64,000 bases of DNA from Escherichia coli (GTDB taxonomy: Bacteria > Pseudomonadota > Gammaproteobacteria > Enterobacterales > Enterobacteriaceae): NCBI RefSeq assembly GCF_003991155.1, contig NZ_CP031293.1; one strand, given 5' to 3'. The first letter of the stretch is position 1, and each line of letters starts with the position of its first letter. Below the pieces are notes generated by a model. It saw nothing but the letters and a program-made list of their open reading frames with translations. It was not told the origin of the DNA and did not search any database. Made by a program: the position numbers and the translations under genes. Positions 42,826 through 44,271 of this stretch are shown piece by piece.

Positions 42826-44271
42826 CTATTTTTTAGCATTCGCATCCAGCGGAGCGGCATAACAACTGTAAGAAAAACATTCGCTGGAATGATTGGCGAT
42901 ATCTTTAAAGTTGCTTTCAGCAACCCCCTCGAACATGAGTACCGTTCTGGACAACTCTCCGTTGTCATTTATATGTGGAAAATCAAATTGTGTACTGAAT
43001 CGCCATACATCTGTCTTTTCTGGCTCGCTGTTCACAGAGATACGTCGATGGAAGACTCCTCCTGAAAACGTGCGCCAGAACAATTGTTGATCAAAATCTT
43101 GTAATATCTCAGAGTTGGATGCTATTTGATGTAGTAAACCTGTATACCGTGGACTGCCATTACGAGCAACATTATGCAAACCCTGACTAAAAGCATCAAA
43201 CAAACAATAGATGTGATCACTAGTGAAAAAAGGTCTTAATTTTTTTTGTTCTTCATCGCTGTAATCCAGGAGCATCTCATTGATTTCTTCCGGTGAGAAT
43301 TTTAAGACAAAATTATCCTCAGGATTTGTTTCTTTCTTGTTTTTTTCACTATTCTTCTCCTCAATGGTCTTCGCATTTTGTTTCGCAATTTTTTCCTCAG
43401 TTTTTTTCGCAATTTTTTCCGCAATTTTTTCCCGAGTTTTTGATTTTAGACTAACACCATCGATGTCAACCGGTGTTGTTTTCAGATCTCTCTGCGCGTC
43501 TTTCAAATTTGTCTTATAGAGATCAGGCACTTTATCGGCAGATAAGTATCCGGATGAAGAAATCTGGTGTGTACGCATGGGGGGCTGTTCACAAAGCATC
43601 GAGGCTATATCGTCTTTAAACTCTTTTACATTAAAGTTATTGGCATTAACCTTCCCTGTTATAAACCCCGCATCGGCAATTTTCTTCTCTAATTGTTTTG
43701 TACGTTTAGAATAATAAGCGTTGTTATCATAAAACTTTTCAAGAAGGGCCCACTCCTCAAGTTGCCTTATGTGATTTTTCAACTGTTGATGATCTATTTT
43801 ATATTCATGTGTACTAGAATCATTTTGGTTGCAAGAGTTACAGATTTTTAAGCATAATTTTCCATCAGATTTATCATCTATGGTATCAGTGAAAATATAG
43901 GACACTTCAATATTCTGCCCGTTCTTATCAGTCATCTCATATGACCATTGCCCCGTTCGTTTCGCATTCTTAATGAGTTCGATGGACTCTGCAGGACAAC
44001 CATGAAGAATGGGCAGAATTTTATCAGGATGCTTAATGAGTAAAATTATTATATTTACAATGTTTGAAAAGAAATCTTTGCTATTTTTTATTTCATCGAT
44101 TTTTTCCGCTGAAATGTTTACTAAATTTTCATTTCCGGAAATGAAAAGCAATTTGCCATGGGGGCTTTTTTTAAATTGTTCTTCTGTTTTAGAAAAAACA
44201 TTCTCTTTAAAAGGTGGCAACTCAGTACCAGTAATAAACGGTTTTAATAAATTCGAATTTGAAATTGTCAT
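42826..44271 (-). CDS. Hypothetical protein (481 aa), AT-rich orphan gene; family not recognised
   Basis: Long uninterrupted minus-strand ORF MTISNSNLLKPFITGTELPPFKENVFSK...ECFSYSCYAAPLDANAKK; clearly more AT-rich than flanking acpH/malZ; Lys/Glu-rich central segment with EKIA repeats; no signal peptide or transmembrane segment obvious. Confidence 0.7.
   Translation of the reverse strand: MTISNSNLLKPFITGTELPPFKENVFSKTEEQFKKSPHGKLLFISGNENLVNISAEKIDEIKNSKDFFSNIVNIIILLIKHPDKILPILHGCPAESIELIKNAKRTGQWSYEMTDKNGQNIEVSYIFTDTIDDKSDGKLCLKICNSCNQNDSSTHEYKIDHQQLKNHIRQLEEWALLEKFYDNNAYYSKRTKQLEKKIADAGFITGKVNANNFNVKEFKDDIASMLCEQPPMRTHQISSSGYLSADKVPDLYKTNLKDAQRDLKTTPVDIDGVSLKSKTREKIAEKIAKKTEEKIAKQNAKTIEEKNSEKNKKETNPEDNFVLKFSPEEINEMLLDYSDEEQKKLRPFFTSDHIYCLFDAFSQGLHNVARNGSPRYTGLLHQIASNSEILQDFDQQLFWRTFSGGVFHRRISVNSEPEKTDVWRFSTQFDFPHINDNGELSRTVLMFEGVAESNFKDIANHSSECFSYSCYAAPLDANAKK
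43385..43432 (-). repeat. In-frame 12-nt tandem repeat (gcaattttttcc; EKIA on the coding strand) inside the 481-aa ORF
   Basis: Exact copies at 43385-43396, 43409-43420 and 43421-43432 (the last two directly tandem), giving REKIAEKIAKKTEEKIAKQ in the protein. Confidence 0.8.

What the first reader, a model, noticed from the sequence alone, without database searches (positions are those of the whole stretch)
43340..43440. In-frame 12-nt tandem repeats and A7 homopolymer runs inside the orphan ORF
The unit gcaattttttcc occurs three times, two directly tandem, encoding the tetrapeptide EKIA repeated within a Lys/Glu-rich segment. The same stretch has at least two runs of seven T on the plus strand (A7 in the coding strand). 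In-frame 12-nt units can expand or contract by slipped-strand mispairing without breaking the frame, and A7 runs are frameshift-prone, so the gene may show length or phase variation between isolates.
Basis: seen in the sequence. Interest (0 to 1): 0.4.

Follow-up and report, generated by a model that had tools for sequence, protein, structure and literature searches.

The report
Variable 12-base repeat in orphan gene
A short in-frame DNA repeat and nearby runs of A inside an E. coli-only gene of unknown function really do differ between strains, changing the protein's length or breaking the gene, but they change slowly and between lineages, which is ordinary repeat instability and not a fast genetic switch.

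Summary
GCAATTTTTTCC occurs exactly at 43385-96, 43409-20 and 43421-32. T7 runs lie at 43340-46 and 43401-07. All sit in a 481-aa minus-strand ORF (42826-44271), the ECs_0454 orthologue, on a 1.65-kb low-GC islet between acpH and malZ.

The prediction largely holds. The gene is in 1127 of 5426 complete E. coli genomes, and every indel among aligned alleles falls in 43340-43432. Coding lengths are 1422, 1446, 1458, 1470 and 1494 nt, and proteins run from 466 to 497 aa, nearly all in 4-aa steps. At least 10 independent unit gains or losses are seen, several in alleles whose flanks are otherwise identical.

Frameshifts occur in the A tracts:
- A7 to A8 at 43340-46 in 25 O145:H28 genomes, and also in UTME-3.
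- A7 to A6 in one isolate.
- A8 to A7 at an array-internal tract in at least three genomes of the KV7 lineage.

The changes are slow. All 310 O157-type and all 167 window-type genomes are invariant. The best reading is slipped-strand or short-direct-repeat instability in a length-tolerant helical linker, plus occasional pseudogenisation, and not programmed phase variation. The protein has no detectable homologue or fold. This is a new member of a known kind, of modest interest.

The parts
42826..44271 (-). 481-aa ORF of unknown function, the orthologue of ECs_0454 of O157:H7 Sakai. It is an Escherichia-restricted orphan gene and the host of the repeats.
   Evidence: ORF list. Annotated 'hypothetical protein' in all records. 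Present in 1127 of 5426 complete E. coli genomes, always chromosomal. No family, PDB, phage or true plasmid match. Only one full-length 50%-identity cluster among 1.84 billion representatives.
43372..43432 (-). Core of the 12-nt (4-codon) tandem array. It encodes EKIA EKIA KKTE EKIA KQNA, and its copy number is polymorphic.
   Evidence: TRF period 12, 5.1 copies. Exact copies at 43385-96, 43409-20 and 43421-32. All length differences between alleles map here.
43315..43371 (-). Decayed 3' continuation of the same 4-residue periodic segment (KTIE EKNS EKNK KETN PED). It is part of the Lys/Glu-rich linker.
   Evidence: Unit-register display of alleles. Helix predicted for residues 277-305 at pLDDT 62-77, which is low to moderate confidence.
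43340..43346 (-). A7 run in the coding strand (Glu-Lys-Asn codons GAA AAA AAC). This is the recurrent frameshift site.
   Evidence: A6 in strain 19KM1776. A8 in Z1323HEC0422, FWSEC0002 and 23 further O145:H28 genomes, and also in UTME-3. A7 in all 310 O157-type genomes.
43401..43407 (-). Second A7 run, inside the array (KKT codons). No length variant was seen.
   Evidence: Homopolymer listing in nine alleles and further alleles: A7 in every allele that has the unit.
43241..43248 (-). A8 run downstream of the array (EQKKL). No length variant was seen in the sampled alleles.
42813..44453 (.). Low-GC islet of about 1.65 kb (30-39% GC against about 55% in the flanks). It is inserted exactly between the convergent stop codons of acpH and malZ.
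   Evidence: Composition profile. The K-12 empty site has 4 nt between the two stops. Junction alignment.

Best explanation
The segment is a mutational hotspot inside a real but poorly constrained protein-coding gene.

Origin (inferred): a 12-nt unit, GAAAAAATTGCG encoding (E/K)(K/E)(I/T/N)(A/S/E), was serially duplicated. This built a Lys/Glu-rich, probably alpha-helical linker of about 40 residues between an N-terminal part (residues 1-275) and a C-terminal part (322-481).

Length changes: the units are near-identical direct repeats and 12 is a multiple of 3. Replication slippage, or RecA-independent recombination between the short direct repeats, therefore adds or removes 12, 24 or 36 nt without breaking the frame. 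The linker appears to tolerate the resulting length changes, which range from 27 to 55 residues.

Frameshifts: the Lys codons also create A7/A8 runs. Rare +/-1 slippage there shifts the frame, truncates the protein at about residue 325 and removes the C-terminal part. Such alleles persist as lineage-fixed pseudogenes.

Shown here: the polymorphism, its confinement to the repeats, its recurrence on identical backgrounds, and its slow tempo. Inferred: the slippage mechanism, the helical linker role and the near-neutrality.
For: (1) In an alignment of 12 alleles, every gap column lies in window 43346-43432.

(2) Allele coding lengths are 1422, 1446, 1458, 1470 and 1494 nt. Database proteins of 466-493 aa carry 35 distinct array haplotypes of 27-51 aa, all differing by whole 4-aa units. 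The longest allele, in ETEC4075, has a 55-aa array.

(3) Indel ends coincide with units or direct repeats:
- L006 and L011 differ by one exact EKIA unit, with 0 SNPs elsewhere.
- L003 is L002 plus a 36-nt duplication (KKTE EENA EKIA).
- The 469-aa alleles are the window allele minus 36 nt, between copy 1 and copy 3.
- EBJ003 lacks 24 nt.

(4) At least five independent gains or losses in different registers occur on one background with an identical 430-aa flank.

(5) The instability continues in a dead gene. UTME-3 differs from the frameshifted O145 allele only by a 12-nt unit deletion across 2.57 kb. This argues for mutation rather than selection as the driver.

(6) Frameshifts occur at A tracts:
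- A7 to A6 in 19KM1776.
- A7 to A8, shared by 25 O145:H28 genomes from several submitters and also present in UTME-3.
- A8 to A7 in KV7, NCTC10444 and O78 strain 3.

(7) The tempo is slow. All 310 O157-type genomes have the same array and A7. All 167 window-type genomes are uniform.

(8) The array is predicted helical, and the helix is longer in the longest allele: 277-305 against 277-314.

(9) dN/dS between alleles is 0.3-1.2, which indicates weak constraint.
Against: - No slippage event was observed directly. The direction of each change is inferred.
- Deep allele classes may owe their arrays to recombination, not de novo slippage. One example is the array-less 461-aa allele, whose flanks are mosaic.
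- The AF2 models are poor (mean pLDDT 42 and 39), so the two-domain-plus-helical-linker picture is weak.
- The single A6 isolate and the single A7 O145 isolate (RM12275-C1) could be homopolymer sequencing errors.
- High dN/dS would also fit diversifying selection, so neutrality is not shown.
- The sampled genomes are heavily biased towards O157.
Confidence: 0.75

Rival explanations
1. It is an adaptive contingency locus. Tract slippage switches the gene on and off, and unit number tunes the protein, for example the reach of a spacer. Both would be maintained by selection during host or phage interaction.
For: - ON and OFF tract lengths both exist in nature, and the same tract changed in both directions (+1 and -1) on different backgrounds.
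- Within O145, 25 genomes are A8 and one is A7, with no other difference across 2.57 kb. This could be a reversion.
- dN/dS approaches or exceeds 1 in the C-terminal part for several pairs.
- The gene is a horizontally acquired, low-GC accessory gene.
Against: - None of 310 O157-type genomes has an altered tract or array.
- The A8 state is fixed in O145:H28.
- A7 is shorter than the tracts typical of contingency loci (established knowledge of Campylobacter, Haemophilus and Neisseria SSRs).
- The number of homopolymer runs is no more than codon usage predicts.
- Unit loss also occurs in the pseudogene.
- The other A7 and A8 tracts show no variants.
Confidence: 0.1
2. The array differences are mainly imported by homologous recombination between pre-existing diverged alleles. 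They are not generated de novo at this site.
For: - The array-less allele (L009) has a non-alignable central segment. Flank identity falls to about 80% near it and recovers to over 95% at the gene ends, which is a mosaic pattern.
- Allele classes differ by 14-115 SNPs.
Against: - Several pairs have 0-1 differences outside the array yet differ by one unit.
- The changes are exact unit or direct-repeat events.
Confidence: 0.1
3. The variation is a sequencing or assembly artefact, from homopolymer errors in long reads or mis-assembled repeats.
For: - Single-genome variants (19KM1776 A6, RM12275-C1 A7) cannot be verified here.
- Frameshifts in A/T homopolymers are a typical long-read error (general knowledge).
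Against: - The A8 allele is identical in 25 records with unrelated accession series and submitters.
- The A7 variant is shared by KV7, NCTC10444 and O78 strain 3, which differ by only 0-1 SNP.
- The array is about 60 nt, far shorter than any read.
- The 12-nt-step alleles recur in hundreds of genomes and in independent protein databases.
Confidence: 0.03

Closest known systems
NeuO poly-psi VNTR of E. coli K1 (CUS-3 prophage O-acetyltransferase)
   Same: It is a tandem repeat inside an E. coli coding region that changes copy number by strand slippage. The repeat encodes a variable-length peptide segment (RLKTQDS heptads) that the protein tolerates (PMC3046976).
   Different: - NeuO's unit is 7 nt, so copy number also switches the frame. 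It varies between 2 and 93 copies at high frequency, and activity scales with length (PMC3046976).
- Here the unit is 12 nt and always in frame, with only 1-8 intact copies.
- Change is slow: none in 310 O157-type genomes.
- No functional read-out is known.
Homopolymer contingency loci (for example Campylobacter jejuni poly-G genes, Helicobacter pylori sabA)
   Same: A mononucleotide run in a coding region whose +/-1 change shifts the frame, with both states found among isolates (PMC3025981 and PMC2715451 for the known systems).
   Different: - The known loci have longer tracts and switch frequently within one population.
- Here the tract is A7 in a mismatch-repair-proficient species.
- Variants are lineage-fixed, and the tract count is no more than codon usage predicts.
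In-frame repeat regions of surface and envelope proteins used for typing (S. aureus spa Xr 24-nt repeats; E. coli MLVA coding VNTRs; TolA helical domain II). Recalled from memory, not tested here.
   Same: Repeat units in multiples of 3 nt, copy number differing between lineages, and a linker or spacer segment that tolerates length change.
   Different: - Those proteins have known localisation and function.
- This one is an orphan with no signal peptide call, family or fold.
- I found no paper naming ECs0454 or Z0502, or using this locus for typing.
ER/K single alpha-helix (SAH) spacers
   Same: A Lys/Glu-rich segment predicted to be helical, lying between two other parts of the protein. The helix is predicted longer in the longer allele.
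   Different: Only 51% of residues are charged, and Ile/Ala recur every 4 residues. It is therefore more an amphipathic helix than a canonical SAH. Model confidence is low.

Membership tests
Coding-region VNTR / in-frame minisatellite | Head-to-tail copies of one unit | tested here: met
   TRF period 12, 5.1 copies, 81% matches. Three exact copies, two of them adjacent.
Coding-region VNTR / in-frame minisatellite | Unit length a multiple of 3, so copy changes keep the frame | tested here: met
   The unit is 12 nt. Alleles of 1422, 1446, 1458, 1470 and 1494 nt all translate without internal stops.
Coding-region VNTR / in-frame minisatellite | Copy number differs among isolates | tested here: met
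   In the 60-genome spread sample, length differences were: 0 in 29 genomes, +12 in 19, +24 in 6, +48 in 1 and -24 in 1. There are 35 array haplotypes among 117 proteins.
Coding-region VNTR / in-frame minisatellite | Changes arise de novo at the repeat, seen as identical flanks with different copy number | tested here: met
   L006 and L011 have 0 SNPs outside the array. The O145 allele and UTME-3 differ by the 12-nt gap only across 2.57 kb. At least five events occurred on one protein background.
Phase-variable contingency locus | A simple repeat in the reading frame whose length change shifts the frame | tested here: met
   A7 to A6 and A7 to A8 at 43340-46, and A8 to A7 at an array-internal tract. 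All truncate the protein at about residue 325.
Phase-variable contingency locus | Frequent, reversible switching within a clone or population | tested here: not met
   None of 310 O157-type genomes has A6 or A8. A8 is fixed in 25 O145:H28 genomes, with one A7 exception of uncertain meaning. Within-culture heterogeneity cannot be tested with assemblies.
Phase-variable contingency locus | Repeat tract enriched or longer than composition predicts | tested here: not met
   Four runs of 7 or more against 2.2 expected from codon shuffles, P = 0.18.
ER/K single alpha-helix linker | Isolated helix with very high E/K/R content and no hydrophobic seam | tested here: not met
   A helix is predicted at pLDDT 62-77, but only 51% of residues are charged and I/A recur with period 4.
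Any described protein family or fold for the host ORF | Significant sequence or profile match | tested here: not met
   - Pfam, NCBIfam, PADLOC, PHROGs and PDB: nothing above threshold.
- The representative search finds only the gene's own cluster plus one weak PKD-like hit at E = 1e-6.
- The AF2 models are too poor for a fold search.

The most novel reading that the evidence does not exclude
ECs_0454 would be a fast-evolving, E. coli-specific host- or phage-interaction protein. Its Ser/Thr/Asn-rich, acid-free N-terminus would even allow a secreted effector. The helical spacer length (1-8 units) and the ON/OFF state (A7/A8) would be under diversifying selection, making it a slow contingency-like gene in a species that has few of them.
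Probability: 0.1. Interest if true: 0.55.

Novelty: new member of a known kind. Interest (0 to 1): 0.28.

Why it matters
- The work shows that a reader working from raw sequence correctly picked out the one segment of this gene that actually varies in nature.
- It gives a documented in-frame VNTR with at least 35 haplotypes, plus two lineage-marking frameshifts (in O145:H28 and in the KV7/NCTC10444 lineage). These could serve as typing markers.
- It flags ECs_0454 as a widespread orphan gene, present in 21% of complete E. coli genomes including O157:H7, O55:H7 and O145:H28. The gene has no homologue, no fold and weak constraint, so it is a candidate for functional study.
- The repeat behaviour itself is textbook repeat instability and does not change any current view.

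Tried and rejected
- **Protein family scans:** Pfam, NCBIfam, PADLOC and PHROGs gave only sub-threshold, low-complexity-driven hits such as Cas7e and QRICH1. I rejected these.
- **PDB sequence search:** nothing.
- **phmmer against 1.84 billion representatives:** only the gene's own cluster, fragments of it, and one weak PKD-like match.
- **AlphaFold2, two runs with 17 alleles:** mean pLDDT 42 and 39. I did not run a fold search because matches would be meaningless.
- **GTDB species-representative genomes:** scanned with an invariant 27-mer and with a degenerate peptide-coding pattern, with 0 hits each. No other species representative carries the gene.
- **Phage collection:** no match.
- **Plasmid collection:** the only two hits are 4.9-Mb records, meaning chromosomes filed as plasmids.
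- **Rfam on the islet:** nothing.
- **Literature:** no paper mentions ECs0454. The only hit for Z0502 is an unrelated magnesium-alloy name. The malZ/acpH search found nothing relevant.
- **Enrichment of frameshifts at array-proximal tracts:** considered and rejected as significant. Three events fell on 2 of 5 tracts, which gives P of about 0.06, and database fragments show a T6 frameshift elsewhere.

Full report
**1. What is at the coordinates**

The window is E. coli chromosome, with tgt, queA, acpH, an unnamed ORF and malZ. The finding lies in a minus-strand ORF at 42826-44271 encoding 481 aa.

- The + strand 12-mer GCAATTTTTTCC occurs exactly three times: 43385-96, 43409-20 and 43421-32. 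The last two abut. It occurs nowhere else in the 64 kb, even with one mismatch allowed.
- Tandem Repeats Finder calls a period-12 array of 5.1 copies at 43372-43432, with period-24 and period-36 superstructure.
- In the coding strand the segment reads TR EKIA EKIA KKTE EKIA KQNA KTIE EKNS EKNK KETN PED.
- T7 runs (A7 in the coding strand) are at 43340-46 and 43401-07. A T8 run is at 43241-48.
- In codon shuffles of the ORF, a 12-mer present three or more times appears in 0.35% of trials. The four homopolymer runs of 7 or more are not unusual, with 2.2 expected and P = 0.18.

The repeat is non-random. The A runs are a by-product of Lys-rich, AT-rich coding sequence.

**2. The host gene**

- In K-12 the stop codons of malZ and acpH are 4 nt apart.
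- Here a segment of about 1.65 kb with 30-39% GC (about 42813-44453) sits between them. The flanks are about 55% GC.
- The ORF has a GGAG 7 nt upstream of its ATG.
- It is the orthologue of ECs_0454 of O157:H7 Sakai.
- It is present in 1127 of 5426 complete E. coli genomes, always on the chromosome. In all 21 loci inspected it sits at this acpH/malZ site.
- It is annotated 'hypothetical protein' everywhere.

It has no match above threshold in Pfam, NCBIfam, PADLOC, PHROGs or PDB sequences. phmmer against 1.84 billion cluster representatives finds one full-length cluster, fragments of the same gene, and one weak PKD-like hit at E = 1e-6 to residues 102-158. There is no copy in phages or true plasmids. 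No GTDB species representative carries it.

Two AlphaFold2 runs on 17 alleles gave mean pLDDT 42 and 39, so I did not attempt a fold search.

The gene is nevertheless real. An open frame of 481 codons at this composition has a chance probability of about 1e-16 (inference from the base counts). The frame is kept in the great majority of carriers.

dN/dS between alleles is 0.3-1.2. Constraint is therefore weak, or there is some diversifying pressure.

**3. Does the repeat vary?**

Yes, and only there.

- In a MAFFT alignment of 12 alleles, every gap column falls in window 43346-43432.
- Coding lengths are 1422, 1446, 1458, 1470 and 1494 nt.
- In a 60-genome evenly spaced sample of the 1126 matching genomes, length relative to the window allele was:
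  - unchanged in 29 genomes
  - +12 in 19
  - +24 in 6
  - +48 in 1
  - -24 in 1
  - +23 or +25 (frameshifted) in 2
  - a divergent allele without the array in 2
- Among 117 database proteins there are 35 distinct array haplotypes of 27-51 aa, all differing by whole 4-residue units.
- The longest allele, in ETEC4075, has a 55-aa array.

**4. How the changes look**

They are exact unit or direct-repeat events.

- L006 and L011 differ by one EKIA unit, with 0 SNPs in the other 1.3 kb.
- L003 equals L002 plus a 36-nt duplication of KKTE-EENA-EKIA.
- The 469-aa alleles equal the window allele minus 36 nt, the distance between exact copies 1 and 3.
- EBJ003 lacks 24 nt.
- On a single background with an identical 430-aa flank, at least five independent gains or losses in different registers occur.

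Counting these together with L004/L010 and P0006/P0032 gives at least 10 independent events.

UTME-3 carries the O145 frameshift and differs from the O145 allele only by a 12-nt unit deletion over 2.57 kb. The array therefore keeps mutating in a gene that is already broken. This points to mutation pressure and not to selection on the protein.

**5. The A runs**

At least three independent frameshifts were found, all in A tracts of this segment.

- A7 to A6 at 43340-46 in strain 19KM1776.
- A7 to A8 at the same tract in 25 genomes. The named ones are O145:H28, O145 or O145:NM, from several submitters. UTME-3 also carries it.
- A8 to A7 at an array-internal tract (unit KKNS; the window allele has only an A6 there) in KV7, NCTC10444 and O78 strain 3, which differ by 0-1 SNP. 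A fourth genome, GPEC1446, has the same segment length but I did not read its sequence.

Because multiple independent records share them, the last two are real inherited mutations. Each truncates the protein at about residue 325 and removes the C-terminal part.

One O145 strain, RM12275-C1, has A7 and an intact ORF with no other difference. This could be an ancestral state, a reversion or a sequencing error. I cannot tell which.

The A7 at 43401-07, the A7 at codon 34 and the A8 at 43241-48 showed no variants in the alleles read. Database fragments show that other tracts can break too, for example a T6 run.

**6. Tempo**

Synthetic A8 and A6 versions of the O157-type segment found no exact match. 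All 310 genomes in the 99%-or-above band carry A7 and the same array. The 167 window-type genomes are likewise uniform over 381 nt.

Within the 27 O145-type genomes there are two variants at this segment and zero SNPs elsewhere in the three loci I read in full.

The segment is the most mutable part of the gene. It changes on the timescale of lineage divergence, not within clones.

**7. Interpretation**

The best explanation, at confidence about 0.75, has two parts.

- Slipped-strand mispairing or short-direct-repeat recombination in a serially duplicated 12-nt unit produces in-frame length polymorphism of a linker that tolerates it.
- Rare A-tract slippage produces lineage-fixed pseudogenes.

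The linker is predicted helical: residues 277-305 in the window allele and 277-314 in the longest allele, at pLDDT about 57-77. Only 51% of its residues are charged, and Ile/Ala recur every fourth residue. It is therefore not a canonical ER/K single helix.

The rivals are:

- Adaptive contingency locus (0.1).
- Recombination import (0.1). This is probably true for the array-less mosaic allele, but not for the identical-flank pairs.
- Artefact (0.03).

**8. Comparison with known systems**

The nearest E. coli precedent is the neuO VNTR. It has a 7-nt unit and 2-93 copies, shows high-frequency phase variation, and its activity scales with repeat number (PMC3046976).

This locus shares the slippage-prone coding repeat and a length-tolerant peptide. 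It differs in three ways: it is always in frame, it has few copies, and it changes slowly.

It meets every tested criterion of a coding VNTR. It fails the frequency and tract-enrichment criteria of a contingency locus.

**9. Verdict**

The phenomenon is a new instance of a well-known kind. The residual interest lies in the orphan gene itself.

**Caveats**

- The complete-genome set is biased towards O157.
- The censuses rest on 40- and 60-row samples and on identity bands.
- Mechanism and neutrality are inferred, not shown.

Noticed in passing
window 44378-44423 (minus strand): An inverted repeat, CAGCCCTGACA...TGTCAGGGCTG, with a smaller inner hairpin. It lies just downstream of the malZ stop and inside the islet, followed by AATTTGTT. 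It may act as the malZ terminator in islet-carrying strains, which would mean the orphan ORF needs its own promoter. The consensus scan found no promoter there.
   Followed up: partly
L009 (NZ_AP045789.1) 501-1886; also hits H99 and H100: About 3% of carriers have a 461-aa allele in which the Lys/Glu array is replaced by an unrelated segment of about 100 nt (RHLADIIHVKCMREKNYTTDQGFELPEEVIHA). Identity drops to about 80% around it and recovers to over 95% at the gene ends. This is a mosaic or recombinant central region.
   Followed up: partly
L012 (O55:H7 USDA5905) 2501-4241: A deletion removes the 5' 1.1 kb of the orphan ORF together with the 3' end of malZ, leaving two fused partial pseudogenes.
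   Followed up: no
window ORF residues 90-147 (about 43831-44004): H90, C92 and C140-x3-C144-x2-C147 are invariant in 17 alleles, which suggests a possible metal-binding site. Residues 102-158 weakly resemble PKD-like repeats of a 947-aa metagenomic protein at E = 1e-6.
   Followed up: partly
window 44224-44271 (N-terminus of the ORF): The first 16 residues, MTISNSNLLKPFITGT, are Ser/Thr/Asn-rich and contain no acidic residue. From memory this resembles type III secretion signals. The gene occurs in LEE-positive lineages (O157:H7, O55:H7, O145:H28) but also in many others. This is untested.
   Followed up: no
L015 (NZ_CP100500.1, strain LH50-c) 2484-2802: malZ itself is annotated as frameshifted in this strain, while the neighbouring orphan ORF is intact.
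   Followed up: no
plasmid collection hits H161 and H162: Two 4.9-Mb E. coli records are filed as plasmids in PLSDB. They are evidently chromosomes, so plasmid hits to chromosomal genes in that collection need checking.
   Followed up: no
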